64,000 bases of DNA. It comes from a virus. Below the pieces are notes generated by a model. It did no database searches, was not told the origin of the DNA, and saw only the letters and a program-made list of their open reading frames with translations. Positions 2,896 to 19,602 of this stretch are shown one piece after another. The DNA is taken from positions 2,446 to 66,445 of IMG/VR virus record IMGVR_UViG_3300031654_000269, one strand, 5' to 3'. Made by a program: the position numbers and the translations under genes. Each line of letters starts with the position of its first letter. Positions within the stretch are counted from its first letter, which is position 1.

Positions 2896-2905
2896 TTTAA
2901 TAATA

Positions 2906-3322: not shown

Positions 3323-3324
3323 TT

Positions 3325-4885: not shown

Positions 4886-4893
4886 TTAAGTCC

Positions 4894-5784: not shown

Positions 5785-5836
5785 GATTAGAAATTTAATT
5801 GTTAAAAATAAAAGTTAGTTATGTTTATTCAAATTA

Positions 5837-6598: not shown

Positions 6599-6950
6599 AC
6601 CGTGCGGATGTTTTAGCGGTTTCTTTTACGGTCACGGCTGACAGTTGAGGGTATATCTTTTCAAATACCCTGTAGATATATCCAGCAATATGCTCAGCTG
6701 TTGGATTTAATCTATCAAATGGATAATTGTCATTCAAACACTTATGATCAAACATCTCATCAATGAAATCCTTCACCCGTTTCAAATCATTATAATCTAC
6801 AACAAATCCCTTTATATCCAATTCCTTAGATTTGAGTTCAATGATTACCGTATAGGTATGCCCATGTAGTTGTGAGCATTTATGTCCAGGTGGTAATCCA
6901 AGCAGTTTATGAGCTGCATCAAAAGTAAATTCTTTAGTGATTGTGTACAT
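6588..6950 (-). CDS. queD: 6-carboxytetrahydropterin synthase
   Basis: FDAAH, CSQLHGHTY, FDH, NPTAE, VKET. Confidence 0.96.
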   Translation of the reverse strand: MYTITKEFTFDAAHKLLGLPPGHKCSQLHGHTYTVIIELKSKELDIKGFVVDYNDLKRVKDFIDEMFDHKCLNDNYPFDRLNPTAEHIAGYIYRVFEKIYPQLSAVTVKETAKTSARYEE

Positions 6951-6982
6951 CGATTTTGAAGTTAAGTTAATATTAGAGTCAA

Positions 6983-7012
6983 TAAAATTAAATAAAAAAT
7001 TTTAAAAACCAG
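6983..7012 (-). promoter_or_regulatory. Putative promoter upstream of the que cluster
   Basis: Minus strand CTGG...TAATTTTA with Bacteroidota -33/-7 spacing; same motif recurs at 10717, 14473 and 62167. Confidence 0.55.
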
Positions 7013-7042
7013 TATTTTTTAAACGTTATTTTATCAATTATT

Positions 7043-8587: not shown

Positions 8588-8819
8588 CTTTTAAAAATAA
8601 ATCTTCACTATACAATAAACTCTTTCTTTCAGTTATCTGTCCAGAGATATAGGCTAATTTAGCAGCCGTTTTTCTGTCCACAAATCTACCAGTGTTAGTT
8701 AAAAAACCTTGTTCTCCTCCTTTCAATGATCCAAACTTAGCCTTGCTAATTATCTTACTATGGTTTTCCCCGATGTAGATTTTATTGTTTTTTCTGATTG
8801 CTGCTTTTTGTATTAACAT
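8580..8819 (-). CDS. Small hypothetical phage protein
   Basis: 79 aa, QGFLTNTGRFVDRKTA; overlaps both neighbours. Confidence 0.7.
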   Translation of the reverse strand: MLIQKAAIRKNNKIYIGENHSKIISKAKFGSLKGGEQGFLTNTGRFVDRKTAAKLAYISGQITERKSLLYSEDLFLKDD

Positions 8820-9384
8820 TTTTTGTTTCCCAATTAGTTTTCTTTATGATTTTACAACTCCTCTCAATACGAGAGGTAATACGATCATCACCAATTATCT
8901 TAGCAGCCTCATTCAACGATAGGTTTGAGGTGAATACTGTTATATGATTATTCTCATATCGAAAGTTCACAATTTCATACATGAGTTGTAATACCCAATC
9001 TGTTGGTTTTGTAGTACCAAAGAAATCATCCAATACTAAAAATTCAATCACTTTGTGATACTCCAACGATTGGTAATATCCATCAGCACGCCCAATATCA
9101 AAACAGGATTTTAGGTGAGTAATAAATTCAGAGAAGGAAATAAACTTTGATGCTGGAGTATCTTCGCGTAGATAACAATCAAGTTCATACTTCAAAAGTC
9201 TCAAAGCAGCCAGGATCGTTTTACCATATCCTACATTACCGTAGATGTAGGTGCTTTCAATAGTAGGTTCTTGATCCTTAAAATCTTTACAGATGCTTAA
9301 CAGATCGTCTCGTATTCGAGGGGTAAATTTTGTTTCAATTAGTTTAGGGAGAATTTTTTCTTCCCAGCGTTTTTTAGTTCTCAT
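8782..9384 (-). CDS. DnaC/IstB-like ATPase (helicase loader)
   Basis: YGNVGYGKT, LVLDDF, RYEN..TVFTSN, DRITSRI. Confidence 0.88.
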   Translation of the reverse strand: MRTKKRWEEKILPKLIETKFTPRIRDDLLSICKDFKDQEPTIESTYIYGNVGYGKTILAALRLLKYELDCYLREDTPASKFISFSEFITHLKSCFDIGRADGYYQSLEYHKVIEFLVLDDFFGTTKPTDWVLQLMYEIVNFRYENNHITVFTSNLSLNEAAKIIGDDRITSRIERSCKIIKKTNWETKNVNTKSSNQKKQ

Positions 9385-9722
9385 TTTCCTTGGATTTGTC
9401 TAATTAAACTTTTCGGAATAATCTGTTCTCTTTTTGCTTTGACACTCGTTATTATTTTTTCTGATTGATTCCTCTCCATTACAATACCACCTAAAGGGAA
9501 TTTGGGTTGATGATCATCCGTAATTTGTGAAAGAATTATATGTTTTTCAACCTCTAATGAATGAACCCAACAAGCATAAGCTACTACACGAAAAGCTCGT
9601 TTTAGATTTATAGCTTGATATTTACTTACCCCTTTCTTTGCAATAACTAGAGCTTTTTTTACATATAAAAATTGCTCTTCTGTTATTTTTTTTAGTTGAT
9701 TTATTTTTTCTTCTTTAGTCAT
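9381..9722 (-). CDS. Hypothetical protein
   Basis: 113 aa ORF in the replication operon. Confidence 0.65.
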   Translation of the reverse strand: MTKEEKINQLKKITEEQFLYVKKALVIAKKGVSKYQAINLKRAFRVVAYACWVHSLEVEKHIILSQITDDHQPKFPLGGIVMERNQSEKIITSVKAKREQIIPKSLIRQIQGK

Positions 9723-9724
9723 TT

Positions 9725-10492
9725 TTATTCCTCATATTCCTTCTTAGTATATTTCTTTTTTGTATCGACATAACCAATCGTATTCTGTGGTTTTGATAGA
9801 GAGTTGTAATTATTCCTTAATTCAAACAAACCTTTCCATCCATTTGACATAGATCGATTAATTATTTCAATAGCATTCTCTACATCATTATTAGAAATAG
9901 TTTGTAAATGATTTAATGCTGTTTGTTGAGTAGCTGAAGATTTATATTTGAAGTTAAATTCCTCTCTCTTATATCTAATCCATTTACGCCAAGTTCTCCT
10001 AAATTTAGGGGAGTTGAATGGATAATCTATATTTAAGCAATTGCTTAGCAAATCCCCTGTTATATATATCTTATTATTATTCTTATTTTTATTTAATAAA
10101 ATATTATTATTATCAAGCATTTGCTTAGCTTTTGTTTTTGTTCGTTTCATCTTCCTTTCTACTCGTCCTCCTTTTGAACCTGCTTCTGCTCTTCTATCAC
10201 TTATGACTGAAAATTTAGAATATTGAATATCTAAGAAATTTATTTGAATCATATTCACTCCATTCTTCTCTCTGATTTTAATAATCTTCCTTTTATCAAT
10301 TAACTCCTCTATTTCTTTTTCATAATCAAAAAATCTTTCTTTCACATCCTCTAACGACATAATACAATCTCGCATCCAATAAAATCCACAAATACTATTA
10401 AAGACTCCCTGAGCAGACATTGAGCATAATGTAATAGCTCCCGTCATATGTTCAGCTGGGTAGAATTTAAAATACGGAATTTCTTTTGCCAT
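9725..10492 (-). CDS. Phage replication initiator/replisome organiser (YdaU-like N-terminus)
   Basis: PYFKFYP N-terminus, RRAEAGSKGG linker, C-terminal IINRSMSNGWKGLF; lies upstream of the DnaC-like gene. Confidence 0.72.
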   Translation of the reverse strand: MAKEIPYFKFYPAEHMTGAITLCSMSAQGVFNSICGFYWMRDCIMSLEDVKERFFDYEKEIEELIDKRKIIKIREKNGVNMIQINFLDIQYSKFSVISDRRAEAGSKGGRVERKMKRTKTKAKQMLDNNNILLNKNKNNNKIYITGDLLSNCLNIDYPFNSPKFRRTWRKWIRYKREEFNFKYKSSATQQTALNHLQTISNNDVENAIEIINRSMSNGWKGLFELRNNYNSLSKPQNTIGYVDTKKKYTKKEYEE

Positions 10493-10509
10493 TCTGTCTT
10501 ATTTTATGC

Positions 10510-10623
10510 AAATAAAAACCTGAAAGGATTTAGGCTGGTCCAAACCGTGTCCTTTCAGGTGTATTATCCGAAGTTGCCCCCAGGATAACATATGATTGAG
10601 TTGTTTTGTGTCGATTTGGACCA
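10510..10623 (-). ncRNA. Structured leader of the initiator gene: terminator-like hairpin with a pseudoknot-capable loop
   Basis: 11-bp inverted repeat 10518-10528/10550-10560 followed by a U-tract; loop 9-mer (10536-10544) is complementary to 10615-10623; extra hairpin 10564-10588. Confidence 0.55.
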
Positions 10624-10635
10624 TTCTTTTTCTTT

Positions 10636-10681
10636 TTAAAGAGAAACTGAATGGAAGCATATCCGGAACTCCCATTCAGTT
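10636..10681 (-). terminator. Hairpin followed by a U-rich tract (terminator/attenuator-like)
   Basis: 10-bp stem aactgaatgg/ccattcagtt at 10645-10654/10672-10681. Confidence 0.45.
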
Positions 10682-10716
10682 ATTGAAGCAAAAGACAAAC
10701 AGGAAAAAATTAGACC

Positions 10717-10749
10717 TAAAATTATAAAATAAAATTTTAAAATACCTAA
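10717..10749 (-). promoter_or_regulatory. Putative promoter of the initiator/helicase operon
   Basis: TTAG-N21-TAATTTTA on the minus strand. Confidence 0.55.
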
Positions 10750-10782
10750 TAAATTTTAATATATTTATTAAGTTATTAATTA

Positions 10783-11100
10783 TTAAAGAGTTACCTCCAT
10801 TAAATTATCATGGAGTGCTACCAGATGTCGGGAGATTTGAATCTTTCTTTTTCCGGAACTATCTTCAACGAATAGTAGATCATATCGGCGGTTTCCTTTC
10901 TTTACTTTTACAATTTCATGTTTGAGTACAAATTCATCCTGGGCAATCTTTCGATACCAATGGGTGATTTCTTTTGAGTGAGGAGCAACTCTATCTTGAA
11001 CCATCCTCCAGTAAAGTTGTTTGATACATGGTTCAATCAGATTCCTTTTTTTGCTGTTAAAGAGTTTTGTAACAGCCCAGATAATTAATTTTACAATCAT
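10783..11100 (-). CDS. Hypothetical protein
   Basis: 105 aa ORF with an A-rich start context. Confidence 0.6.
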   Translation of the reverse strand: MIVKLIIWAVTKLFNSKKRNLIEPCIKQLYWRMVQDRVAPHSKEITHWYRKIAQDEFVLKHEIVKVKKGNRRYDLLFVEDSSGKRKIQISRHLVALHDNLMEVTL

Positions 11101-11207
11101 TTTAGTTTGTTTTTAATGGATTAATACTAATTGTTATAGATAGATTATACAGAATAAAACTGCTAGCCATACGGTTATTTTAAGGACAATAGTTATTATC
11201 TTTAATA

Positions 11208-11411
11208 TCATAATTTCTTTAGATTTAAGATTATCGTAATGATTATTCCAATGATAAGAATCCATACGATTATTTGTGTCGTTCTTCCCATGTCAACGAA
11301 GACATCGGGTATTTCTTGTTCTTTCATGACGGTGACCCAAAAAGTCCGTAACCAATGATCAGGATTATCCCGCCTTGAATAAATTTCCAGATTGCAGCCA
11401 TTGCAATGCAA
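11208..11411 (-). CDS. Small membrane protein (start uncertain)
   Basis: C-terminal hydrophobic helix IIVWILIIGIIITIIL. Confidence 0.45.
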   Translation of the reverse strand: MHCNGCNLEIYSRRDNPDHWLRTFWVTVMKEQEIPDVFVDMGRTTQIIVWILIIGIIITIILNLKKL

Positions 11412-11470
11412 AGGATTACATACCAGATAATTTCAAATAATTTTAATGCTTTTTCCATAATTTCTAATTT

Positions 11471-12370
11471 TTAAATTGATATTTGTTTGATTAAATAATT
11501 AGCTTCATCTTGTTTCATCCCACCTGGGTCTCCAACAATCGGCACTCTCCAGGCATCAACACCTCGAAATTGTAATTCATTTACAAGTTTCTCAGCTTGC
11601 CGTACTGCCTGTTTTTCATCATCAAATACGACAGCAACCCGTTCAAAAGTATTAGCAATCATACGTACTTGTTGTCGAGTGTATTCAATACCGAATGTGG
11701 CAAATGCCTTTGGTCCAAGTCTCCAAACATCCGTAATCCCTTCTACACATATTCCTGTTTCCTCCCATTCAGATTGTTTACCATATAGAATTACTTTATG
11801 ATGCACGAGTTCACGATCCTCCGGACAGGCTTTGTATTTTGGTTTTCTTTTATCGGAAGTGCTCCTGCCTTGAAATGATACACATTTTCCATTCCATTCA
11901 ATAGGAGCTATAATACGATTTTTATAATCTCGTTTATCTAACATACTGGATGGACCGGTGCTGAGTAGTTTCCATTCATGTTCAAGTTTTTCCGGATCAA
12001 ACTCACGACCTTCCAAATATTGTTTATGTCTTTCAGTTAACGGTTCTGTACTGGATGGAAAGTGAAATGCTTTCTTACGGATTTTTATTTTTTGAACTCT
12101 CGGTTTAACTAAGTATTGATCACCGTATGAATGGAGTATTTTACGAGCTTCCTGTTCGGTTACTTTTATGAGTTTGCTTATGGTTTCCGCGATAGGGTGT
12201 TTGCCACACCTCCAACAGTTGAAGTAATTATCATCGAGTGAATATCCAAGATGATTTGATTGATCTCCACAGAACGGACAGGTGGTATTTACCCAACCTG
12301 GTTGACAGTTATTTCCTTCAGTCCAGGTTGGTATGGAGTAATCTTCGTAGAGTTTTAGAATGTCAATCAT
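11471..12370 (-). CDS. DNA primase (zinc finger plus TOPRIM)
   Basis: CPFC..H..CWRC, SFQGR, PKY, CVEGITD, VFDD, GDPG; start reassigned to 12370. Confidence 0.9.
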   Translation of the reverse strand: MIDILKLYEDYSIPTWTEGNNCQPGWVNTTCPFCGDQSNHLGYSLDDNYFNCWRCGKHPIAETISKLIKVTEQEARKILHSYGDQYLVKPRVQKIKIRKKAFHFPSSTEPLTERHKQYLEGREFDPEKLEHEWKLLSTGPSSMLDKRDYKNRIIAPIEWNGKCVSFQGRSTSDKRKPKYKACPEDRELVHHKVILYGKQSEWEETGICVEGITDVWRLGPKAFATFGIEYTRQQVRMIANTFERVAVVFDDEKQAVRQAEKLVNELQFRGVDAWRVPIVGDPGGMKQDEANYLIKQISI

Positions 12371-12764
12371 TATAAGTAATGATAATACATTTACAACCAC
12401 TATAAATATCATCTGGATTATTTAAGACCATTTTAGCAATAGCTTCAAATTGTAATCCATTAGGAGTATTTACAACAATTGGTAATCTTTTTAGACTTGG
12501 TTTTAGACACTGTAATTCCTTGATTAAATCATAAACTGTTTTTACTGTAAGTTCAGGCCAATATTTACCCATTAAAGAATTAACAGAATATTTTTTACGT
12601 TTTCCATTTAAAAATAGATAAATATAAGGACTCCCATTATTCTTTGCCCAAGGTTTCAATATTTTTGATTTTCCTTTTTTGTGTACAATCAAACCAGACG
12701 ATGATATATAATAATTACCATCTCCTTCTGTAATTTTTTTTAAATCTAATTTTTTAAGTTTCAT
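12363..12764 (-). CDS. NUMOD4-like domain protein (homing-endonuclease-related, no HNH motif seen)
   Basis: NYYISSSG...KILKP...YIYL..NGKRKKYSV. Confidence 0.55.
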   Translation of the reverse strand: MKLKKLDLKKITEGDGNYYISSSGLIVHKKGKSKILKPWAKNNGSPYIYLFLNGKRKKYSVNSLMGKYWPELTVKTVYDLIKELQCLKPSLKRLPIVVNTPNGLQFEAIAKMVLNNPDDIYSGCKCIIITYND

Positions 12765-14463
12765 AATATAAATCGATTAATTCTGTTAATAATGAGTCTT
12801 GATCTGTTTCTTGTCCGTCAAGTACCCGGTCAATGATCTTCCGTTTATTATCTAGCATTTCAACTATTCGTTCTTCAATAGTATCTTCTGCTAATAAGAA
12901 ATACACAGTCACACTCTCCTCCTGACCAATACGGTGGAGGCGATCCTCTGCCTGCGATATCTCACTAGGTTTATAAGGTAATTCTAAAAATGCTACATTT
13001 GAAGCAGCGGTTAATGTAATACCTACTCCGGCTGCTTTTATATTCCCAACAAATAATTGAATAGAGTTTGATTGTTGGAAGTCATCAACTATTTTTTGTC
13101 GGATTGAACTTCGGACTGATCCATCAATTTTGACGGATACATTTCTAAATTGTTGCATCAGGGTATCTACAGTGAATTGATGAGTAGTAAATACAACTAA
13201 CTTCTCTCTGGTATCTAAAAAGTTTTCAATCCATTCTATACATTGGTCAATCTTCCCTCGTATGGTGAGTTGTTTTAAACCTTCAATTTTGGTGAGGGCT
13301 TCTGCATTTGATATTTTCTTTGCTCGTTCAGCACCAAGATTTTTTCTAACATAAGCAACAAAATTTCTTTCTGCTTCATTATACTCTTTTTGATTCTCAA
13401 GTGAAAAAGGAACGTATGAATAGACTTTATCTGGTAACTCACGAAGCACCTCTGATTTCTTCCTTCTAATCATGATGGTGCTCGTAAGCAGCTCGTTTAG
13501 TTCTTGGGTATTGCTAGCTCCTGAATAATCCCATCCAAATCCATTATGTCTCGCTGCACAGTATTTTTGAACAAAAGGCCAAAATGAAGGTATTCTTGAA
13601 TCATCAATTATTTTACAAATATTGTAGATTTCAATTGGTCTGTTTTCGATAGGAGTACCAGAGAGACCAAGAATATATTTTGAATGTCGACTTAATTTCC
13701 TGGCAGCATAAGTACGCCGGGCTGAAGTATTCTTGATATACTGAGACTCATCAAATATAACCAACTCAGGTTTCATATCAATTAAATAATCCACCCAACC
13801 TGACCGTGGAATTTCTCTCTGCTTTTTCTTTCCGTTTTGATCTGTATACTTTTCAGTCTTATTTGCCAGGATATCGTAGTTGATAATAACAACTTCACTT
13901 TTTATAGAGGAATCCGGTTTAGTACCAAATAGAATTCGTACAGTAGGAAAAGGATCCATCCACAATCGAATCATTCTACGCCAATAACTCTTTACGGATG
14001 CCGGACAAACAATTACAGTGGTTTGAATTTCCTGATGTAATTGTAGCCAAGCAATTGCTTGAATAGTCTTCCCCAGTCCCATATCATCGGCGAGCAATAC
14101 CCTTCCATTTTTCTGTTCAATCGTTGCTACACCTTTATTTTGAAAAGGTCGTAATTGACCTTTTAATCCTGGTATTTGAATTTCTTTGATGTTTTCAATG
14201 GAGCTTTCTTTTATGAATTGTATGAGTTTAGGATCAATAGAAAAACCCCACTCACGTAGTTTCTCAATATTAGTAGGAATGAGTGGGGTGGACCAGTACT
14301 TGCTTTTATCATCATGAAATCGTCTGCCTTCCAATGAGCGTATCCGGGCTAAATCTTCCGTATTGTACGGAAAAGTGATTCGTATTGCCTTCTCACCAGA
14401 TTGCTCGAAAGTAGCTAATGAAGCCAATCGCAGATGTTTACTTATTTTGATTCCTGATCTCAT
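12754..14463 (-). CDS. SNF2-family helicase (SMARCAL1/HARP-like annealing helicase)
   Basis: LADDMGLGKT, DESQ, LSGTP, AAGVGITLT, QAEDRLHRIGQ. Confidence 0.93.
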   Translation of the reverse strand: MRSGIKISKHLRLASLATFEQSGEKAIRITFPYNTEDLARIRSLEGRRFHDDKSKYWSTPLIPTNIEKLREWGFSIDPKLIQFIKESSIENIKEIQIPGLKGQLRPFQNKGVATIEQKNGRVLLADDMGLGKTIQAIAWLQLHQEIQTTVIVCPASVKSYWRRMIRLWMDPFPTVRILFGTKPDSSIKSEVVIINYDILANKTEKYTDQNGKKKQREIPRSGWVDYLIDMKPELVIFDESQYIKNTSARRTYAARKLSRHSKYILGLSGTPIENRPIEIYNICKIIDDSRIPSFWPFVQKYCAARHNGFGWDYSGASNTQELNELLTSTIMIRRKKSEVLRELPDKVYSYVPFSLENQKEYNEAERNFVAYVRKNLGAERAKKISNAEALTKIEGLKQLTIRGKIDQCIEWIENFLDTREKLVVFTTHQFTVDTLMQQFRNVSVKIDGSVRSSIRQKIVDDFQQSNSIQLFVGNIKAAGVGITLTAASNVAFLELPYKPSEISQAEDRLHRIGQEESVTVYFLLAEDTIEERIVEMLDNKRKIIDRVLDGQETDQDSLLTELIDLYYET

Positions 14464-14472
14464 TTTAAGATA

Positions 14473-14503
14473 TAAAATTATAAAATTATTTTTTAATTCC
14501 TAA
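14473..14503 (-). promoter_or_regulatory. Putative promoter of the SNF2/primase operon
   Basis: TTAG-N19-TAATTTTA on the minus strand. Confidence 0.55.
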
Positions 14504-14886
14504 CGGTGTTTTGTCCGCTTGATTTTTGCATGACGTGTACGAACAATCTTTGTACTAGGTTTCTGTGGTTCATTGAGCTGATCTCTCAGCTCTTTAAATC
14601 GTTCAATGTACTTTATCCGATGACGATTTAATACTGCATAGAAATCTCGGTTGTCTTTTGATTTAGCAAGAAATGGACGTTCAATGATTAAGGTACTGGA
14701 ATCAAATAATTGATGAACGGTTTCCTGTCTCAAACAAAATTCACGTCCATCCTCTCTCACTTCATAAAACATTACTTTACTTCCTACTAAACGGGCTTCC
14801 AAAATAACATCACGGAAATTAGCGATGTATTTGTATTGCCAGTTGGGGATTGCTTTTGCAAGGACATTTTTGTGTATTGATTTCAT
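14500..14886 (-). CDS. Hypothetical early protein
   Basis: 128 aa, preceded by the conserved start-associated repeat. Confidence 0.75.
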   Translation of the reverse strand: MKSIHKNVLAKAIPNWQYKYIANFRDVILEARLVGSKVMFYEVREDGREFCLRQETVHQLFDSSTLIIERPFLAKSKDNRDFYAVLNRHRIKYIERFKELRDQLNEPQKPSTKIVRTRHAKIKRTKHR

Positions 14887-14939
14887 AATTACAACGTTTT
14901 TTATTGGTTAAGAGCAGGAATAAATCCTGCTTTCGGTCA
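14887..14939 (-). repeat. Start-associated repeat / hammerhead substrate half-site (CUC)
   Basis: UGACC GAAA GCAGGA-loop-UCCUGC UC UUAACC AAU AAAAAACGUUG UAAUU AUG. Confidence 0.85.
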
Positions 14940-14940
14940 T

Positions 14941-15348
14941 TTAACTCATATAATTTGGACCTCCTGATTTACCACATTTTGAGCAATGGTAATAAATACA
15001 AGGTCCATTTTCAGCGTCTCCAGTATCTTCAATTTCAAAATCATGTTTGCAGTAATGTTGATTTATTTTAATTGTAATCCAAGATAACGTAGAGATTTTT
15101 GGTAATTTAGTGTATTCTCCGGTTGATTCATCATAATCAATTGAGAAAGCATTTCTGTGTTTCCAAGATTCAAATAAATCAAAACAATTTACAATCCATT
15201 GTGGGAGTAACCAATACTTCTTTCTGCTAAAAATAATGTATTGAGGATATTTCTTATCCTTCTTCCATTTAAAAAGTAGACCACTGTTAGGATTTACTCT
15301 TGATCCGGAAGTTTCTAGACTAAAAAGTCGATTCTTAAATATTAACAT
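14941..15348 (-). CDS. Hypothetical early protein with a C-terminal Cys/His cluster
   Basis: Start reassigned to 15348 (MLIFKNR) directly after a partial repeat; CKH...CSKC. Confidence 0.7.
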   Translation of the reverse strand: MLIFKNRLFSLETSGSRVNPNSGLLFKWKKDKKYPQYIIFSRKKYWLLPQWIVNCFDLFESWKHRNAFSIDYDESTGEYTKLPKISTLSWITIKINQHYCKHDFEIEDTGDAENGPCIYYHCSKCGKSGGPNYMS

Positions 15349-15369
15349 AATTACAACGTTTTTGGTTAA
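15349..15369 (-). repeat. Degenerate start-associated repeat lacking the GAAA hairpin
   Basis: UUAACC AAAAACGUUGUAAUU AUG only. Confidence 0.75.
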
Positions 15370-15484
15370 ACATATAAATAAATGCGTGAGCCTGTTTCCA
15401 GTCCTCTTACGTCTCTCCGGCTCAAGACAGATACCCAACAATTGAACTATCTAGCTCATTCAATTGATACAGGCGTGACCTTTG

Positions 15485-15549
15485 TGGAGCCAACGGATGG
15501 ATTCGAACCATCCTCCCTTATTAGTTCGGGAGTGCCATTTTTCGCTGGC
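15485..15549 (-). ncRNA. D-armless tRNA-like RNA with encoded CCA
   Basis: Acceptor GCCAGCG/CGTTGGC, T arm GATGG-TTCGAAT-CCATC, discriminator T plus CCA, 10-nt D-replacement loop, CTCCC/GGGAG stem with a 10-nt loop. Confidence 0.7.
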
Positions 15550-15562
15550 ATATTTTTTTAAA

Positions 15563-15640
15563 GAGTCCTCAATCTATCTAACCTAAGAGTTAACCCTACA
15601 CGAAAGAAACGAAACCTCCCCTCTTAGAGATTGAGGACTC
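15563..15640. ncRNA. Long hairpin element between early genes
   Basis: 13-bp perfect outer stem gagtcctcaatct/agattgaggactc plus inner ctaagag/ctcttag stem. Confidence 0.55.
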
Positions 15641-15671
15641 ACATTTGTCATAGGATAACGTTGTAATCAAC

Positions 15672-15884
15672 CTATGACGGAGTTGTTTCTTTATGATGAT
15701 GCTTCGTTCTTTTCATTTTAATTATCGCACCATAGCTTGGATTTCTACGGACATTCTTCATATAGCATGGGTAGCATTGATCTGCATCCGGATTCTTGTC
15801 AACCAAATTCTGCTTCAGTGGTTTACCACATGTTTTGCAGTGTTTGTTGCTTAAAATTTTGTAATCGTGTTTTTTGTTTTTCAT
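15672..15884 (-). CDS. Small zinc-finger protein
   Basis: CKTC...CYPC. Confidence 0.7.
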   Translation of the reverse strand: MKNKKHDYKILSNKHCKTCGKPLKQNLVDKNPDADQCYPCYMKNVRRNPSYGAIIKMKRTKHHHKETTPS

Positions 15885-16408
15885 TTTAATAAAGTTAATC
15901 CGTATTTTAATATTTTGATTTGAATCTTTTCTTTATCAGCATCAGCAGCATAAGCAGCAGCAGCATAAGCAGCAGCAGCATAAGCAGCAGCATAAGCATA
16001 AGCAGCATCAGCAGCATAAGCAGCATAAGCAGCATAAGCAGCAGCAGCATCAGCAGCATAAGCAGCAGCAGCATAAGCAGCAGCAGCATTTTTATTCTTA
16101 GTTGATTGTCTATTTAAGTATCTTTCAGCTGCTTCAATAGCTTTCTCTGGTCGATCATCATCAGGATACTTTTTTTGATAAATAGGTAAAACCAATTTTG
16201 CAGCAAATACGGCATATTGTACTCTCTGTTTTTTGTTCATTAATTTTACAATCAACCAATTTGCCCAATCCAAACGGAATCTATTATTAATAGAATAATT
16301 GAGTAATTTAATTGGATTCTCTATTGGATGAGATTTGAACCATTCAATGCCTTCGATACAGGCACCATAGTTACTTAATAAATTAAGAGTGATTTTTTTT
16401 GTCTTCAT
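15881..16408 (-). CDS. Ala/Tyr-repeat protein (Imm5-like DDRPxKAIEAA segment)
   Basis: Start reassigned to 16408 (MKTKKIT) after a repeat; AAAYA tandem block. Confidence 0.75.
   Translation of the reverse strand: MKTKKITLNLLSNYGACIEGIEWFKSHPIENPIKLLNYSINNRFRLDWANWLIVKLMNKKQRVQYAVFAAKLVLPIYQKKYPDDDRPEKAIEAAERYLNRQSTKNKNAAAAYAAAAYAADAAAAYAAYAAYAADAAYAYAAAYAAAAYAAAAYAADADKEKIQIKILKYGLTLLK
15938..16088 (-). repeat. Coding microsatellite of GCT codons interspersed with TAT/GAT
   Basis: About 50 codons of AAAYAAAAYAADAAAAY... Confidence 0.9.
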
Positions 16409-16458
16409 AACAACGTTTTTATTGGTTAATAGCCTGAAATTAATCAGGCTTTCGGTCA
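16409..16458 (-). repeat. Start-associated repeat / hammerhead substrate half-site (CUA)
   Basis: UGACC GAAA GCCUGA-loop-UCAGGC UA UUAACC AAU AAAAACGUUG UU AUG. Confidence 0.85.
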
Positions 16459-16653
16459 TTTCATTGATTCAGGATTTCCATATCCCCAAATTATTTTACC
16501 GGTGAGTTTAATAAACTCCCGTTCAACTTTATCAATCTCATCAGCAGTGACTCTACTGTATCCTTTTGCTCTCATTTCATTTCTGAGATTAGTGTGTTGC
16601 TTGATAAGATTAACAATTTTCTTGTGTTTTTCTACAAATTCTTCATTATTCAT
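16456..16653 (-). CDS. Hypothetical early protein
   Basis: 65 aa between two repeats; its TGA stop is the TGA of TGACC. Confidence 0.75.
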   Translation of the reverse strand: MNNEEFVEKHKKIVNLIKQHTNLRNEMRAKGYSRVTADEIDKVEREFIKLTGKIIWGYGNPESMK

Positions 16654-16704
16654 AACAACGTTTTTATTGGTTAATAGTCCCTTATAAAAAGGGACTTTCG
16701 GTCA
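16654..16704 (-). repeat. Start-associated repeat / hammerhead substrate half-site (CUA)
   Basis: UGACC GAAA GUCCCUU-loop-AAGGGAC UA UUAACC AAU AAAAACGUUG UU AUG. Confidence 0.85.
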
Positions 16705-16929
16705 TTTTAAATAAATAAAATCATATGCATGTTTATTAAGTACAATCTTAGCATTATGAATATTTGATAATGCAATAAATTTAGTAATAGCACTTTCTGA
16801 ATCAAATCCAGATTCTAATACATTTTCATCCTGAGAGATTGAAAAAGTACAATCTGTCATTTTATCAAGATAATAGGTAAGTCCACCTTTCTCGAAAGTA
16901 AAAATAGTAATTTCAGTTTCGTTTTCCAT
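16702..16929 (-). CDS. Hypothetical early protein
   Basis: Start reassigned to 16929 (MENETEI) after a repeat. Confidence 0.75.
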   Translation of the reverse strand: MENETEITIFTFEKGGLTYYLDKMTDCTFSISQDENVLESGFDSESAITKFIALSNIHNAKIVLNKHAYDFIYLK

Positions 16930-16985
16930 AATTACAACGTTTTTATTGGTTAAAATCCTAACCATTAAAGATTAGGATTTCGGTC
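16930..16985 (-). repeat. Start-associated repeat / hammerhead substrate half-site (AUU)
   Basis: GACC GAAA UCCUAA-loop-UUAGGA UU UUAACC AAU AAAAACGUUG UAAUU AUG. Confidence 0.85.
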
Positions 16986-16987
16986 GT

Positions 16988-17233
16988 TTAATACTCATGC
17001 TGAGGATACCTCGTATAAGATAATCCATTTTTTTCCATTGTGAATTGACGATATCCTACTGTAAACCGTTTAAAGTATTCCGTTTTACATTTAGGATCAA
17101 CATCAATTTGCCTAGCCCAAACAGATTCCCCATCCTTTAAAACATTCATAAAACCTTTTATGGTTTTAATGATTTGTCCTTTCAGACTTTTACGTCCTTC
17201 ACATACATCAACAATTTCATATTCTGTTCTCAT
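16988..17233 (-). CDS. Hypothetical early protein
   Basis: Start reassigned to 17233 (MRTEYEI) after a repeat. Confidence 0.75.
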   Translation of the reverse strand: MRTEYEIVDVCEGRKSLKGQIIKTIKGFMNVLKDGESVWARQIDVDPKCKTEYFKRFTVGYRQFTMEKNGLSYTRYPQHEY

Positions 17234-17292
17234 AATACAACGTTTTTTATTGGTTAATACAGTGAGCTTAAAAATACTCACTGTTTCGGTCA
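17234..17292 (-). repeat. Start-associated repeat / hammerhead substrate half-site (GUA)
   Basis: UGACC GAAA CAGUGAG-loop-CUCACUG UA UUAACC AAU AAAAAACGUUG UAUU AUG. Confidence 0.85.
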
Positions 17293-17499
17293 GTTTAAAT
17301 TTGTTCTAATCGTTCCTGTATATCCAAGTCCATGAAAGAACCGGACAAATGAAGAGATGTCTTTTGCAATAATCATCTCACGGGAGACTTTCTTGCTACG
17401 AGAGTTACTCGTTACTACATCAACGAACCATTTGTCAGGATCGGATGTTTCAAATTCTATTGTAGAATTTTTTCTGTGGAGGCTGCCGGGGAATTTCAT
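17290..17499 (-). CDS. Hypothetical early protein
   Basis: 69 aa, ATGA-coupled to the upstream gene. Confidence 0.7.
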   Translation of the reverse strand: MKFPGSLHRKNSTIEFETSDPDKWFVDVVTSNSRSKKVSREMIIAKDISSFVRFFHGLGYTGTIRTNLN

Positions 17500-17870
17500 T
17501 TTTTTAAATCTTTACGAGAATCCTCCCATTGGATTATCCATTGTTTATCTTTAAAAATCCAATAACAATCAGCTATCCTTGTTCCATTAGAACCATCTGT
17601 AATATAATGAAAGGTAAAATTTAATGGAAGCCAGTATTCTTCCATACTTTGAGATAAACCTCCTCCAAAATTGGTTATTTTGAAAGAAGAATAAAAGTTT
17701 TGGAGTACTCCTGTCTGAGCTTTTAGTTCTTGGGAAGATAATTCAATGTATTGTCTTCCATCTCTGTATTGAGATACGTTTGTAGTTAATATCAAATCAA
17801 TTCCAAATTTCTTAGAAATGATTTTCGTTAAACTAGTAAAGTCAAAATCAATCAATTCCAAATTTTTCAT
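17496..17870 (-). CDS. Hypothetical early protein
   Basis: 124 aa directly after a repeat. Confidence 0.75.
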   Translation of the reverse strand: MKNLELIDFDFTSLTKIISKKFGIDLILTTNVSQYRDGRQYIELSSQELKAQTGVLQNFYSSFKITNFGGGLSQSMEEYWLPLNFTFHYITDGSNGTRIADCYWIFKDKQWIIQWEDSRKDLKK

Positions 17871-17924
17871 AACAACGTTTTTATTGGTTAATAGGCCAAG
17901 TAATAATACTTAGCCTTTCGGTCA
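17871..17924 (-). repeat. Start-associated repeat / hammerhead substrate half-site (CUA)
   Basis: UGACC GAAA GGCUAAGUA-loop-UACUUGGCC UA UUAACC AAU AAAAACGUUG UU AUG; one U-G wobble in the stem. Confidence 0.85.
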
Positions 17925-17926
17925 AA

Positions 17927-18226
17927 TTACCATCTTCTTGTTTCGGTAACCTTAACATCCTTTACTCTGAATTCTTCAGGAATGGATACTTTCCATCCTC
18001 CATCATCCTCCCAAGTTACATCATAACCCAAGGCTTCAAGTAATTTTGGTACAGGGTTATCTTTTTCTACACCACTTCCATAAATTACTACTTGATTTTC
18101 TGCTGGATTAAAGAATTCATACAGTTTGTGCATATCACAATTCCTAATTATATGAGCCGGTTTATAAAAATTATTACCTGCTTGATAAATAGGAAATTTT
18201 TTTGATTTCTCAAATGAATTTTTCAT
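17927..18226 (-). CDS. Hypothetical early protein
   Basis: Start reassigned to 18226 (MKNSFEK) after a repeat. Confidence 0.75.
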   Translation of the reverse strand: MKNSFEKSKKFPIYQAGNNFYKPAHIIRNCDMHKLYEFFNPAENQVVIYGSGVEKDNPVPKLLEALGYDVTWEDDGGWKVSIPEEFRVKDVKVTETRRW

Positions 18227-18282
18227 AATTACAACGTTTTTATTGGTTAATAGCAGGATAATAAAAATCCTGCTTTCGGTCA
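18227..18282 (-). repeat. Start-associated repeat / hammerhead substrate half-site (CUA)
   Basis: UGACC GAAA GCAGGAU-loop-AUCCUGC UA UUAACC AAU AAAAACGUUG UAAUU AUG. Confidence 0.85.
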
Positions 18283-18285
18283 CAT

Positions 18286-18507
18286 CTATAACAAATTTAA
18301 TAGGTCTTTATTATTCCTTTGACCCGTTGCAGTTCCCATATGTAGAGTTTTTGCGTGATTTTGTAACTTCTCAAAGCATTCTATTGTATCGGGTGTTTGA
18401 ATTTCAGTCTGTTTTCCACCTATAAAATAAACAAATTCAAAAAATTCTCCGTCAACACTAATAGCTTTTATAGAAGTTTTTCCGGACATAGCTTCAAATT
18501 TTTTCAT
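18286..18507 (-). CDS. Hypothetical early protein
   Basis: 73 aa, first gene downstream of the ribozyme leader. Confidence 0.75.
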   Translation of the reverse strand: MKKFEAMSGKTSIKAISVDGEFFEFVYFIGGKQTEIQTPDTIECFEKLQNHAKTLHMGTATGQRNNKDLLNLL

Positions 18508-18655
18508 AATTACAACGTTTTTTATTGGTTAAGACCCAGCCAACTCGTGACCGGGTTTCAATCTTTATAATGTGCTTACAGCTTAGACCATTCTAAATAA
18601 ATAGAATCTGGACGAATCCAGTCATCAGTTAACCTCACTGTAAGCAAAAAACGTT
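18508..18655 (-). ncRNA. Hammerhead-like ribozyme: catalytic strand plus its proximal cis half-site (GUC)
   Basis: AACGUUUUUU GCUUACAG UGA GGUUAA CUGAUGA [CUGGA UUCG UCCAG][AUUCUA..UAGAAU] GGUCU AAG CUGUAAGC ... AGAUU GAAA CCCGGUCA-loop-UGGCUGGG UC UUAACC AAU AAAAAACGUU. All hammerhead core nucleotides are present, with a non-canonical insertion after A9. Confidence 0.75.
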
Positions 18656-18811
18656 TGAAAAAGAATCTTGGGAGAAGTAATACCTTTTATGTGTTGGTGC
18701 GGTTTCGATGGCCCGGCGTGATTAAATATTAACGGTGGTGCACTGCCGGAAAGGTGAATCGCTGACTTCGATTCTTATTGGTGTCCTTTTTTCGAGCTTC
18801 TCTCTTTCAGA

Positions 18812-18823
18812 ATGTCAATGAAC
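18812..18823 (-). promoter_or_regulatory. boxA-like antitermination element
   Basis: GTTCATTGACAT resembles rrn boxA (GYTCTTTAANA family) and lies in the early leader. Confidence 0.5.
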
Positions 18824-18854
18824 GTGTAGGTAGGAAAATGTTTCGTCTTTTACT

Positions 18855-18927
18855 GCCAATTCCCCGGCTCATTTACGAGTCCGGGGCACACCTGCCGATT
18901 ACTTACGACAGGATTGGCGGCAGGGTG
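18855..18927 (-). ncRNA. GC-rich pseudoknot-like structured element in the early leader
   Basis: CCUGCC/GGCAGG stem; loop GCCAAU is complementary to AUUGGC located after a CCCCGG/CCGGGG hairpin. Confidence 0.5.
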
Positions 18928-19176
18928 TTATTTTACTGCTTTATAAAGTTCTTCAAATATGTTGTAATAAGTTTGTGAAAGACGATAACGAGCTTTTATA
19001 ACTCGTGCCTTTTTGCAGGTAGTAGTGAACCTATCATAAACATTGGTAGTTTCGTTTTGAATACGATTCCAAAAGTTCTGAAGTTCTCTTTTTGAAGAAA
19101 CTTTTTCAGTAGCTTCTGATTTCAAGCAGATTCTGTAATTTCCGCTTTTGAGTTGTTTAAAGTAAATTGTTTTCAT
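18928..19176 (-). CDS. Hypothetical protein, first gene of the leftward early transcript
   Basis: 82 aa basic ORF right after the promoter. Confidence 0.7.
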   Translation of the reverse strand: MKTIYFKQLKSGNYRICLKSEATEKVSSKRELQNFWNRIQNETTNVYDRFTTTCKKARVIKARYRLSQTYYNIFEELYKAVK

Positions 19177-19209
19177 TGTCGTAAGTATTTGTTTGTATTA
19201 ATCAATACG

Positions 19210-19241
19210 TAAATATAGGTATAATGTTTTAAAAAAACAAG
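19210..19241 (-). promoter_or_regulatory. Bacteroidota-type early promoter (leftward)
   Basis: CTTG-N20-TATATTTA, close to the TTTG/TAnnTTTG consensus. Confidence 0.6.
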
Positions 19242-19319
19242 ACTTTTTAAATTTATTTTTTAAAAAAACGCCTTTTTTTATATAAATCAGCTGTTTATTG
19301 AAAAATAATTCAAATAAAA

Positions 19320-19351
19320 CTAGGATTAAATGATACAAATTTATAAATTTT
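19320..19351 (+). promoter_or_regulatory. Putative rightward (packaging/structural) promoter
   Basis: CTAG-N20-TAAATTTT in the divergent AT-rich intergenic region. Confidence 0.45.
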
Positions 19352-19386
19352 ACTCCATAGATCAAATTACTGACTAAAAAGGAGGG

Positions 19387-19602
19387 ATGGAAATAGCATT
19401 AATCATATTAGGGAGCTGTATTTTGTTATTTATCTGTAACTGGATTTATTATGCAATTGCTATTATCCGGAGTAGAAAGAAAATCAGAAATCTACGAGAG
19501 GAATTTAACGGATATTTGAGTGGAGATATGGATGCTAACGTTCACAAATATGTCAAACGATTTCCTGAATCAGAACTTGCAAAACTCATGAGAAAAAACT
19601 AA
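19387..19602 (+). CDS. Small membrane protein
   Basis: N-terminal TM helix; AGGAGG upstream. Confidence 0.7.
   Translation: MEIALIILGSCILLFICNWIYYAIAIIRSRKKIRNLREEFNGYLSGDMDANVHKYVKRFPESELAKLMRKN

What the first reader, a model, noticed from the sequence alone, without database searches (positions are those of the whole stretch)
14887..18655. Split one-to-many hammerhead ribozyme system in the early operon
Seen: on the minus strand, eight intergenic elements (14887, 16409, 16654, 16930, 17234, 17871, 18227, 18508) read GACC-GAAA-[variable hairpin]-UH-UUAACC-AAU-A5-6CGUUG-short spacer-AUG; the last has GAUU in place of GACC. The hairpins differ in sequence but all pair, and their G-U wobbles work only on the minus strand. 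The triplets are CUC, CUA, CUA, AUU, GUA, CUA, CUA and GUC, never NUG. Established: this is the 3' half of a hammerhead (stem II 3' strand, GAAA, stem III, NUH, stem I strand). Seen: the missing half lies in the leader, with GGUUAA (18629-18634) pairing UUAACC, then CUGAUGA (18622-18628), and GGUC (18586-18589) pairing GACC. A third guide, AACGUUUUUU (18646-18655), pairs with the A5-6CGUU of every repeat. An 8-bp stem (GCUUACAG/CUGUAAGC) frames the catalytic strand. Inference: one catalytic RNA cuts the polycistronic mRNA, in trans or long-range cis, about 21-25 nt before the start codon of eight genes, giving mono- or dicistronic mRNAs with near-identical 5'-OH leaders. Cis hammerheads in phages and discontinuous ones in rodent Clec2 mRNAs are known; I do not know of a natural single-enzyme, many-substrate array. 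Caveat: two hairpins are inserted between A9 and stem II, which is non-canonical.
Basis: partly seen in the sequence, partly recalled or inferred. Interest (0 to 1): 0.97.

Follow-up and report, generated by a model that had tools for sequence, protein, structure and literature searches.

The report
Split hammerhead ribozyme in phage operon
A phage from a salt marsh carries one complete self-cutting hammerhead RNA at the head of its early operon and seven half-hammerheads before later genes. These halves can only be completed by that one catalytic strand, which would make this the first natural one-enzyme, many-target hammerhead; cutting has not been tested.

Summary
Eight minus-strand intergenic elements read GACC(GAUU in copy 1)-GAAA-variable hairpin-U-H-UUAACCAAUAAAAA(A)CGUUG-AUG.

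Three points are new.
- Other viral contigs hold 42 distinct complete cis type I hammerheads: GGUUAA-CUGANGA-stem II hairpin-GAAA-stem III hairpin-UH-UUAACC. The repeats are therefore true hammerhead 3' halves, and the leader carries the matching 5' half.
- The two hairpins between A9 and stem II recur in complete cis hammerheads of two other lineages, L120 and L035/L051/L096. Leader plus copy 1 is thus a whole cis hammerhead. My family model scores it at 42.9 bits, E 8e-7.
- The genome has only one 5' half. In 321 other loci, 46 of 47 3' halves have their own 5' half, against 1 of 8 here.

All seven orphans keep GACC-GAAA, the A-U closing pair and H17, while their hairpins differ. I read this as selection to pair with the single leader strand.

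Trans or long-range cleavage remains inference (about 0.55); no RNA data exist. Rivals are inactive scars and pairing without cutting. Cis hammerhead arrays in phages are known (PMC3088659), so the split layout is a new variant.

The parts
18646..18655 (-). Extra guide AACGUUUUUU. It is complementary to the A5-6CGUU of every repeat (9-10 bp).
   Evidence: Chance expectation for this guide beside GGTTAA is 0.015 per window. Two-strand folding forms this helix unforced with all copies.
18638..18645 (-). GCUUACAG, the 5' strand of an 8-bp pairing with 18574-18581. This pairing is a pseudoknot between the 5' flank of stem I and the stem II loop.
   Evidence: It is the outer stem in the fold of the leader alone. 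This kind of pseudoknot is described for natural hammerheads in PMC3088659.
18629..18634 (-). Stem I 5' strand GGUUAA.
   Evidence: It is identical to the stem I 5' strand of 38 of 40 aligned cis hammerheads, but my search patterns selected for it.
18622..18628 (-). Catalytic core CUGAUGA (C3-A9).
   Evidence: It is the only GGTTAACTGANGA in the whole 66,445-bp genome at up to 1 mismatch.
18608..18621 (-). Hairpin A (CUGGA UUCG UCCAG), directly after A9.
   Evidence: An equivalent hairpin with a different sequence is found in L120 and in L035/L051/L096.
18590..18607 (-). Hairpin B (AUUCUA UUUAUU UAGAAU). It abuts hairpin A and stem II with no linker.
   Evidence: An equivalent hairpin is found in L120 and in L035/L051/L096.
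18586..18589 (-). Stem II 5' strand GGUC.
   Evidence: It pairs with GAUU of copy 1 (two G-U pairs) and with GACC of copies 2-8 (four Watson-Crick pairs). Two-strand folding forms GGUC/GACC unforced.
18574..18581 (-). CUGUAAGC, the 3' strand of the 8-bp pairing. It lies inside the 22-nt stem II loop of the cis hammerhead.
18513..18563 (-). Copy 1: GAUU-GAAA-stem III-GUC-UUAACC-AAU-A6-CGUUG. With the leader it forms a complete cis hammerhead. Predicted cut between 18533 and 18532.
   Evidence: Family model R1 aligns genome 20964-21081 (window 18519-18636) end to end at 42.9 bits, E 8.4e-7.
18232..18281 (-). Copy 2, an orphan 3' half (triplet CUA). Predicted cut between 18251 and 18250.
   Evidence: Stem III has 8 pairs.
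17873..17923 (-). Copy 3, an orphan 3' half (CUA). Predicted cut between 17892 and 17891. A possible decayed 5' half lies just upstream.
   Evidence: R1 gives 26.9 bits. Position-weight test of the upstream relic gives p 0.031.
17238..17291 (-). Copy 4, an orphan 3' half (GUA). Predicted cut between 17258 and 17257. The TGA stop of the upstream gene overlaps GACC.
16935..16985 (-). Copy 5, an orphan 3' half (AUU). Predicted cut between 16954 and 16953.
16656..16703 (-). Copy 6, an orphan 3' half (CUA). Predicted cut between 16675 and 16674. A TGA stop overlaps GACC.
16411..16457 (-). Copy 7, an orphan 3' half (CUA). Predicted cut between 16430 and 16429. A TGA stop overlaps GACC.
14892..14938 (-). 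Copy 8, an orphan 3' half (CUC). Predicted cut between 14912 and 14911.
   Evidence: R1 gives 34.6 bits.
14958..14973 (-). Possible decayed 5' half of copy 8. It has 3 edits from GGTTAACTGANGAGGTC, with C3 and G5 changed, and lies inside the end of the upstream ORF.
   Evidence: (one of only 2 matches in the window at up to 3 edits). The statistics are weak: 1.69 such matches are expected per shuffled window, and the position-weight test gives p 0.087.
15354..15369 (-). Partial copy: UUAACC-A5-CGUUG only, with no GAAA and no hairpin, before the gene 14941-15348.

Best explanation
The early minus-strand operon is punctuated by hammerhead parts.

The leader (18655-18574) together with copy 1 (18563-18513) is a complete type I hammerhead. 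Its stem II is elaborated into a four-way junction (hairpins A and B) and is tied to the 5' flank of stem I by an 8-bp pseudoknot. It should cut itself between 18533 and 18532. That cut would free a leader RNA of unknown 5' end which carries the only catalytic strand in the genome.

The seven other elements are substrate halves: stem II 3' strand GACC, GAAA, their own stem III hairpin, UH, and the stem I strand UUAACC.

Inferred mechanism:
- The leader strand pairs with each element through AACGUUUUUU (9-10 bp), GGUUAA (6 bp) and GGUC (4 bp). The GGUC/GACC pairing displaces the weaker cis partner GAUU.
- The leader then cuts after H17, either within the same transcript or in trans.
- Each product would be a one- or two-gene mRNA. 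It would start with 5'-OH-UUAACCAAUAAAAACGUUG 21-25 nt before the AUG, and end in the next stem III hairpin with a 2',3'-cyclic phosphate.

Shown: the anatomy, the homology to cis hammerheads, the single catalytic strand, and the conservation pattern.
Inferred: any cleavage, and above all cleavage of the seven orphans.
For: 1. Homology. The pattern CGAAA-N14-30-TTAACCAATAAAA hit 110 viral stretches. With the loci these hold 64 hits, 42 of them distinct, of the full form GGTTAA-CTGANGA-stem II hairpin-GAAA-stem III hairpin-T-H-TTAACC.
- In 40 aligned members, 4 of 4 stem II pairs and 6 of 7 stem III pairs change on both sides. 97.1% of cells are paired, against 77.4% in shuffles.
- One member matches Rfam Hammerhead_1 at 29.2 bits, E 1.1e-4. 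The gathering score is 34, so this is below threshold.

2. The odd stem II is natural. L120 and L035/L051/L096 are complete cis hammerheads with two hairpins of unrelated sequence placed between A9 and stem II, with no linker nucleotides.

3. My family model scores leader plus copy 1 at 42.9 bits, E 8.4e-7. It scores the eight 3' halves at 16.6-34.6 bits.

4. There is one catalytic strand in the genome and 7 of 8 3' halves lack their own. In 321 other loci, 46 of 47 distinct 3' halves have a 5' half within 160 nt.

5. Conservation pattern.
- All 7 orphans keep GACC and GAAA, and all eight copies keep the A-U closing pair and H17 other than G, while the eight hairpins differ. Only c2 and c8 share a stem.
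- In the cis family GACC is the stem II strand in 7 of 40.
- In 8 of 9 loci with 3 or more cis copies, every copy has a different stem II.

6. Population variants. Contigs from other salt-marsh runs join cassettes at the repeats with new hairpins that still pair, between kept flanks (tables 5 and 5c). One variant has no difference in 18519-18699 but 10 differences in 18700-18742 (tables 3 and 8).

7. Folding. A leader cut at GGUC, folded with each orphan, forms the guide helix, hairpins A and B, GGUC/GACC and stem III unforced. The full hammerhead fold lies 1.2-4.3 kcal/mol above the minimum and 8.9-11.8 kcal/mol below the separate RNAs.

8. Relatives of this phage (SNF2 and terminase about 50% identical) carry cis type I hammerheads, mostly upstream of the SNF2 gene on its strand: 7 matches in 6 of 80 loci, 5 of them at 44.7-50.2 bits and 2 weak (29.5 and 26.8 bits, E 0.011 and 0.04).
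Against: - There is no RNA evidence at all. No listed holder of this DNA is an RNA run.
- No second genome with orphan halves was found, so enzyme-to-substrate covariation could not be tested.
- L035 also has a four-way-junction hammerhead in its leader, followed by 12 hairpin-GGU-H-UUAACCAAAA elements. Those lack GAA and any stem II strand, and score 11.6 bits or less. Arrays of partial hammerhead-derived elements can therefore persist without being substrates.
- UUAACCAAUAAAA is a leader motif on its own in L128. Its conservation, and with it the leader's complementarity to it, needs no trans cutting.
- L270 shows that one stem II sequence can be shared by 3 cis copies in one genome.
- After self-cleavage the leader keeps its own GAUU-GAAA-stem III in cis, which must be displaced.
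- With the 8-bp stem closed, stems I and II are pseudoknotted and cannot be scored. The leader alone folds with the guides partly sequestered.
- Evidence that the orphans once had their own 5' halves is weak (p 0.03 and 0.09).
- Rfam gives no hammerhead match in the window, even at E up to 10.
Confidence: 0.55

Rival explanations
1. Cis-only hammerhead plus seven dead half-sites. Only leader plus copy 1 cuts. The other seven are recombination or decay scars of former hammerheads. They persist because the hairpin (an mRNA 3'-end stabiliser or weak terminator) and the UUAACCAAUAAAA leader (a translation signal) are useful, and because cassettes are shuffled at these repeats.
For: - Cassette swaps at the repeats are seen in population contigs (table 5).
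- L035 has arrays of hairpin-GGUH-UUAACC that lack the GAA core.
- The leader motif works without a hammerhead in L128, and in the window's own partial copy at 15369-15354.
- Possible decayed 5' halves lie upstream of c8 and c3.
- Earlier notes of this scan record half hammerheads left by recombination in other phages (not checked by me).
Against: - This reading gives no reason why GACC and GAAA are unchanged in 7 of 7 copies whose hairpins have diverged completely.
- Nor does it explain why the shared stem II strand is the exact complement of the only GGUC next to a catalytic core.
- Outside this window, orphan 3' halves are essentially absent (1 doubtful case of 47).
- The extra 10-nt guide is absent from the cis relatives L120 and L035 (read).
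Confidence: 0.3
2. Pairing without cutting. The leader RNA released by self-cleavage acts as an antisense regulator. It binds the shared 5' leader of each early mRNA (guide plus stem I, 15-16 bp next to the start codon) and tunes translation or stability. The hammerhead core is not active on these sites.
For: - The guide helix forms in every two-strand fold, with a gain of 7.1 to 8.2 kcal/mol.
- It lies a few nucleotides before the AUG.
- Multiple turnover would be slowed by a 15-16 bp product helix (inference).
Against: Antisense pairing needs neither GACC-GAAA nor the A-U/UH geometry, yet these are kept in all seven. In a plain antisense RNA the GAAA and the hairpin would be expected to have a complement, and they have none.
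Confidence: 0.1
3. The elements act mainly as DNA or transcription signals (promoter-plus-terminator cassettes of the PeSL kind, or recombination sites), and the hammerhead likeness is incidental.
For: - They are repeated intergenic stem-loops with a conserved 3' block in an early region.
- Cassette exchange occurs at them.
Against: - The G-U pairs work only in minus-strand RNA.
- The consensus scan calls none of the eight hairpins terminator-like, and finds only one weak promoter-like match, at copy 6. That scan does not cover Bacteroidota-type promoters.
- The conserved block ends 2-5 nt before the ATG, which leaves no room for a promoter plus a leader.
- Homology to bona fide hammerheads is strong.
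Confidence: 0.05

Closest known systems
Clustered cis hammerheads that flank single genes in phages and prophages (Perreault et al. 2011, PMC3088659; passages read). The GGUUAA/UUAACC type I family found here in IMG/VR contigs belongs with them.
   Same: - Same ribozyme class, same core and same position directly before start codons of small phage genes.
- Same presumed purpose: cutting a long phage transcript into gene-length mRNAs.
- Relatives of this phage have such cis copies.
   Different: In the known cases every site carries its own catalytic strand. Here 7 of 8 sites have none, and one leader strand is the only possible partner.
Discontinuous hammerhead in mammalian Clec2 3' UTRs (Martick et al. 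2008; known to me from the review PMC6155905, passages read, and the listing of PMC2920678).
   Same: The enzyme and substrate parts of a natural hammerhead lie far apart in one mRNA.
   Different: - The Clec2 case is one enzyme part with one substrate part, a type III with a very long helix I, in a eukaryote.
- Here there is one enzyme strand with eight substrate strands. The split runs through stems I and II, so the substrate carries GAAA and stem III.
Engineered trans-cleaving hammerheads (Uhlenbeck's split design, as described in PMC6155905).
   Same: The catalytic strand with CUGAUGA is on one RNA. The cleavage site, and in this format GAAA and stem III, are on the other. Multiple substrates per enzyme are possible.
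   Different: - Those are artificial. The 2017 review treats trans action as a laboratory format.
- Here the arrangement is encoded in a natural genome and has an added guide helix, a four-way junction and a pseudoknot.
RNase III processing sites between the early genes of phage T7 (recalled, no call), and PeSL promoter-early stem-loop cassettes of T4-type phages
   Same: Repeated intergenic stem-loops punctuate an early operon. For PeSL, they also mark points of modular gene shuffling, as seen here.
   Different: - Those rely on a host protein nuclease or on promoters.
- The hairpins here have 7-10 pairs, which I recall is short for RNase III.
- They sit inside a hammerhead core context.

Membership tests
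Hammerhead ribozyme, type I (leader + copy 1) | Core strand C3-A9 = CUGANGA directly 3' of the stem I 5' strand | tested here: met
   GGTTAA-CTGATGA lies at 18634-18622. Chance expectation is 0.0055 per window.
Hammerhead ribozyme, type I (leader + copy 1) | G12-A13-A14, then A15.1 paired to U16.1, then H17 that is not G, then the stem I 3' strand | tested here: met
   GAAA 18559-18556, stem III 18555-18535, U 18534, C 18533, UUAACC 18532-18527.
Hammerhead ribozyme, type I (leader + copy 1) | Stem II starts directly after A9 and ends directly before G12 (10.1-11.1 pair next to the core) | tested here: inconclusive
   - Two hairpins (32 nt) lie between A9 and GGUC, and the cis partner GAUU gives two G-U pairs.
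- The same layout, with no linker nucleotides, is found in the complete cis hammerheads L120 and L035/L051/L096. It is therefore a natural variant.
- Its activity is untested.
Hammerhead ribozyme, type I (leader + copy 1) | Score at or above the curated Rfam threshold | tested here: not met
   - There is no hammerhead match in the window at gathering score or at E up to 10.
- Canonical cis relatives are also sub-threshold (29.2 bits against 34).
- My own family model gives 42.9 bits, E 8.4e-7.
Hammerhead ribozyme, type I (leader + copy 1) | Site-specific self-cleavage giving 2',3'-cyclic phosphate and 5'-OH ends | not testable with these tools
   No RNA run holds the sequence.
Split (trans or long-range) hammerhead, substrate carrying GAAA and stem III (copies 2-8) | The substrate has a stem II 3' strand, GAAA, a closed stem III with an A-U closing pair, UH, and a stem I 3' strand | tested here: met
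   Met in 7 of 7.
Split (trans or long-range) hammerhead, substrate carrying GAAA and stem III (copies 2-8) | There is no catalytic strand of their own, and exactly matching strands lie elsewhere | tested here: met
   - There is no GGTT[AG]ACTGANGA within 160 nt upstream of any of the 7.
- There is one such strand in the genome.
- GGUUAA/UUAACC, GGUC/GACC and the 9-10 bp guide all pair.
Split (trans or long-range) hammerhead, substrate carrying GAAA and stem III (copies 2-8) | Enzyme and substrate covary across related genomes | tested here: inconclusive
   - No second genome with this array was found in IMG/VR, the JGI metagenomes or the phage records.
- One population variant shows an unchanged enzyme region.
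Split (trans or long-range) hammerhead, substrate carrying GAAA and stem III (copies 2-8) | Cleavage of the orphan sites that depends on the leader core | not testable with these tools
   This needs transcripts or RNA end mapping.
Promoter/terminator cassettes (PeSL-like) | A promoter consensus in the conserved block, and a terminator hairpin with a U tract | tested here: not met
   - The consensus scan of 8 hairpins terminator-like and finds 1 weak promoter-like match, at copy 6.
- Bacteroidota-type promoters are not covered by that tool.

The most novel reading that the evidence does not exclude
This is a natural multiple-target hammerhead.
- The leader RNA frees itself by self-cleavage. It then acts as a guide-bearing ribozyme that processes seven further sites of the early transcript.
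- Once it could do so, the seven cis catalytic strands became dispensable and were lost or overwritten by coding sequence.

This would be a small-ribozyme counterpart of RNase P in one respect, one RNA enzyme with many cellular substrates. It would also be a natural precedent for the engineered trans hammerhead.
Probability: 0.5. Interest if true: 0.93.

Novelty: new variant of a known kind. Interest (0 to 1): 0.85.

Why it matters
Natural hammerheads are regarded as self-cleaving. Trans action is described as a laboratory format, and the roles of prokaryotic hammerheads are called an open question (PMC6155905, passages read).

If the leader strand cuts the seven orphans, this genome would give:
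- the first natural hammerhead that works on many substrates;
- a natural solution to substrate capture, using an extra guide helix, a weak cis partner that can be displaced, a four-way junction and a pseudoknot;
- a clear evolutionary route from cis arrays to a shared enzyme.

It would also show how a phage can give a whole set of early mRNAs the same 5'-OH leader and a hairpin 3' end. That bears on mRNA stability and on translation in Bacteroidota-type hosts that do not rely on Shine-Dalgarno pairing.

Even if the orphans prove dead, two things stand. The four-way-junction hammerhead subtype is found in three lineages. The GGUUAA/UUAACC family fused to a leader motif is a useful addition to the known hammerheads.

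Tried and rejected
Searches that led nowhere:
- Rfam on the whole window at gathering score: 0 matches. At E up to 10 on 14500-19200: 14 matches, none a hammerhead.
- ARAGORN: 0 genes.
- blastn of 14400-19400 against 50,697 phage records: no match.
- The exact 19-mer in viral contigs: 0 stretches.
- The same 19-mer in metagenome contigs: 11 stretches, all single chance matches without a hammerhead context.
It did bring in L035, L051, L096, L120 and five canonical copies.
- The SNF2 protein alone found no relatives. An alignment found 80 loci. None has 3 or more GAAA-hairpin-UH sites sharing the next six letters.
- The four-way-junction pattern gave 6 stretches. Four are real and 2 (L073, L326) are chance matches, apparently in coding sequence (not checked).
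- The records behind L120, L035, L051 and L096 showed no orphan halves with GAAA.
- My generic search for GAAA-hairpin-UH in relatives was too noisy to use.
- Pfam and PHROGs name almost none of the cassette genes. One is Imm5-like and two match PHROGs of unknown function.

RNA evidence: no RNA holder is listed. The four runs laid are DNA contigs, so nothing can be said about expression or RNA ends.

Idea weakened: that each orphan still shows a decayed 5' half.
- Matches at up to 3 edits are expected 1.69 times per shuffled window.
- Position-weight tests give p 0.031 (c3) and 0.087 (c8), and 0.40-0.83 for the other five.
- A local-alignment test gave p 0.047 for c8 and 0.157 for c3 and c5.

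Idea rejected: that the L035 elements are hammerhead substrates. They lack GAA and score 11.6 bits or less.

Not seen:
- Supplementary files of papers, such as the alignments of PMC3088659, which may already hold this family. I did not ask for them.
- The positions of 4 differences in a variant contig over 18572-18669 (table 8).

My literature searches found no description of a natural one-to-many hammerhead. They cover only the held library.

Full report
**What is there.**

The window is 64,000 bases of a 66,445-bp virus record with direct terminal repeats, rated complete. The DNA is held by salt-marsh metagenome runs.

Genes at about 250-19176 run on the minus strand. Terminase and structural genes start at 19611 on the plus strand.

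Between an SNF2 helicase gene (12754-14463) and a non-coding leader of about 370 nt lie about twelve small genes. Nearly all are without a family. One is Imm5-like and two match PHROGs of unknown function.

A ninth gene has only the 3' block, at 15369-15354. The leader strand is as described.

The features exceed chance. The 19-mer occurs 5 times against 0.10 expected. GGTTAA+CTGANGA is expected 0.0055 times per shuffled window, 0.001 times with GGTC nearby, and the extra guide beside GGTTAA 0.015 times.

**The repeats are hammerhead halves by descent, not only by resemblance.**

A scan of IMG/VR for CGAAA-N14-30-TTAACCAATAAAA returned 110 stretches. Dozens of them continue upstream into stem II hairpin, CTGANGA and GGTTAA. 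Together with loci from an earlier scan, I count 64 hits and 42 distinct complete elements.

In an alignment of 40 members:
- Stem II changes on both sides at 4 of 4 pairs and stem III at 6 of 7.
- 97.1% of cells are paired, against 77.4% in shuffles and 21-40% with slid partners.
- Stem I is invariant, but only because my patterns demanded it.
- Relatives of this phage carry the same kind of hammerhead with other stem I sequences.

One member matches Rfam Hammerhead_1 at 29.2 bits and E 1.1e-4, below the gathering score of 34. At gathering score Rfam reports none in ten such loci.

Several contigs carry three or four such hammerheads, each just before a start codon. This is the arrangement Perreault et al. 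described for prophages and tested in vitro in three cases (PMC3088659, passages read).

A scan of species-representative genomes found the family in 9 contigs. Four are titled as Bacteroidota MAGs: Bacteroidia, Agriterribacter, Pedobacter and Niabella. This fits the absence of Shine-Dalgarno sequences before these genes (read).

**The non-canonical stem II is a natural subtype.**

In the window, A9 is followed without any spare nucleotide by hairpin A, hairpin B and then GGUC.

- L120 has the same order: hairpin, hairpin, then a closed stem II GGCU/AGCC, then GAAA.
- The group L035/L051/L096 has it too, with a stem II loop of about 60 nt.
- The hairpin sequences are unrelated among the three lineages. 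In each, single-strand folding returns abutting hairpins.

With the core's own helix this makes a four-way junction in which either neighbour can stack on the core (inference).

In the window the cis partner of GGUC is GAUU, 22 nt further on. That loop holds CUGUAAGC, which pairs with GCUUACAG just 5' of stem I. This is a loop II to stem I-flank pseudoknot, of the kind reported as common in natural hammerheads.

My covariance model of the family aligns leader plus copy 1 end to end at 42.9 bits, E 8.4e-7. So the head of the operon holds a complete, if elaborate, cis hammerhead.

**The other seven are orphans.**

None has a catalytic strand within 160 nt. The whole genome has one GGTTAACTGANGA at up to one mismatch.

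This is unusual. In 321 loci from other contigs I find 47 distinct 3' halves with a stem III of at least five pairs. Of these, 46 have their own 5' half, and the exception is probably a chance match.

The orphans keep every nucleotide a substrate strand needs:
- GACC, the exact complement of the leader's GGUC and a better match than the cis GAUU;
- GAAA;
- a closing A-U pair;
- H17 of A, U or C;
- UUAACC.

Their hairpins, by contrast, share nothing except in c2 and c8.

In the cis family GACC is only one of twelve stem II strands, at 7 of 40. In 8 of 9 loci with three or more copies, every copy has a different stem II. In the one exception, L270, stem III is near-identical in two of the three copies, which suggests a recent duplication.

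Contigs from other salt-marsh runs show cassettes exchanged at the repeats. The letters between the joined sides, once reverse-complemented, make new hairpins that still pair between the kept flanks (tables 5 and 5c). One variant contig is identical over 18519-18699 but differs at 10 places in 18700-18742 (tables 3 and 8).

I read this pattern as purifying selection on the hammerhead-specific letters of halves that have no catalytic strand of their own. The simplest reason is that they use the leader's.

**Energetics.**

With the leader cut after GGUC, two-strand folding forms the guide helix, hairpins A and B, GGUC/GACC and stem III with each orphan, unforced. The full hammerhead fold is 1.2-4.3 kcal/mol above that minimum and 8.9-11.8 kcal/mol below the separate RNAs.

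With the 8-bp stem present the complex is pseudoknotted and cannot be scored. The leader alone folds with its guides partly sequestered.

**What speaks against trans cutting.**

- There are no RNA data.
- No second genome has the array, so enzyme-substrate covariation is untested.
- L035 has the same kind of leader hammerhead, followed by 12 elements of hairpin-GGU-H-UUAACCAAAA. These lack GAA and any stem II strand and do not match the model. So partial hammerhead-derived modules can be kept for other reasons.
- In L128, the locus among the 80 with the highest identities across several shared genes, UUAA(A)CCA(A)U(A/C)AAAA stands about 10 nt before three start codons. One follows a hammerhead with another stem I, one follows a terminator-like hairpin, and one follows neither. 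The 3' block is therefore a leader motif in its own right, and its complementarity to the leader RNA follows from the cis hammerhead alone.
- My hope of showing decayed 5' halves upstream of the orphans gave only weak support.

**Verdict.**

That leader plus copy 1 self-cleaves is likely, about 0.85-0.9 by my judgement, on family membership and core integrity. That the seven orphans are cut by the leader strand is the best explanation of their conservation, but it is untested. I put the whole explanation at 0.55.

The rivals are dead scars kept as hairpin-plus-leader modules (0.3), pairing without cutting (0.1), and DNA or transcription signals (0.05).

Hammerhead punctuation of phage operons is known. 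A shared catalytic strand is not described in the papers I could search. This is therefore a new variant of a known kind, with high interest because a simple in vitro test can decide it.

Noticed in passing
L035:3264-7900 (+), also L051 and L096: This is another phage lineage with a four-way-junction hammerhead in its leader. It is followed by at least 12 intergenic elements of hairpin-GGU-H-UUAACCAAAA(A)UUAU-AUG. Most close with ACC...GGU, like the leader's stem III, but they lack GAA and a stem II strand. Several downstream ORFs begin with the same ATGTCTTATGAA. What these elements do is unexplained.
   Followed up: partly
L035:3305-3365 and window 18628-18633: GUUAAC, formed by the last five letters of stem I plus C3, is self-complementary. 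The long stem II insert of L035/L051/L096 contains a second GUUAAC that could pair with the catalytic strand as an alternative fold. In the window, two leader RNAs could pair through it.
   Followed up: no
window 15400-15680 (-): This is a structured non-coding stretch of about 280 nt, with a T-arm-like GGTTCGAATCC and a CCA. It lies between two cassettes, just upstream of the only gene whose repeat lacks the hammerhead half. ARAGORN and Rfam call nothing here.
   Followed up: no
window 15940-16090 (-): A GCT/TAT-rich coding repeat (Ala-Ala-Tyr-Ala type) lies inside the Imm5-like gene. It attracts very high depth, many indels and many unrelated contigs in the laid runs, and a spurious isrG match in Rfam.
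   Followed up: no
window 16665-17281, 16953-17281, 16933-17872: Contigs from other salt-marsh runs skip one to three cassettes exactly at the repeats. Two of them have a different hairpin at the joint (tables 5 and 5c). The early operon is modular in the population.
   Followed up: partly
L128:1201-2450 (+): This relative of the phage has two cis hammerheads with stem I GACUAA/UUAGUC. It also has the leader motif UUAA(A)CCA(A)U(A/C)AAAA before three start codons, separate from stem I. The motif may be a translation signal of these phages.
   Followed up: partly
window 18852-18895 (-): A strong G+C-rich hairpin (CCCCGG...CCGGGG) lies in the leader, upstream of the ribozyme strand and downstream of the 82-aa ORF 18928-19176. 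Its role is unknown.
   Followed up: no
L221:5218-5296 (-): One cis copy matches Rfam's RAGATH-1 hammerhead model weakly (26.1 bits, gathering score 56.3). The GGUUAA/UUAACC family may overlap that described variant.
   Followed up: no
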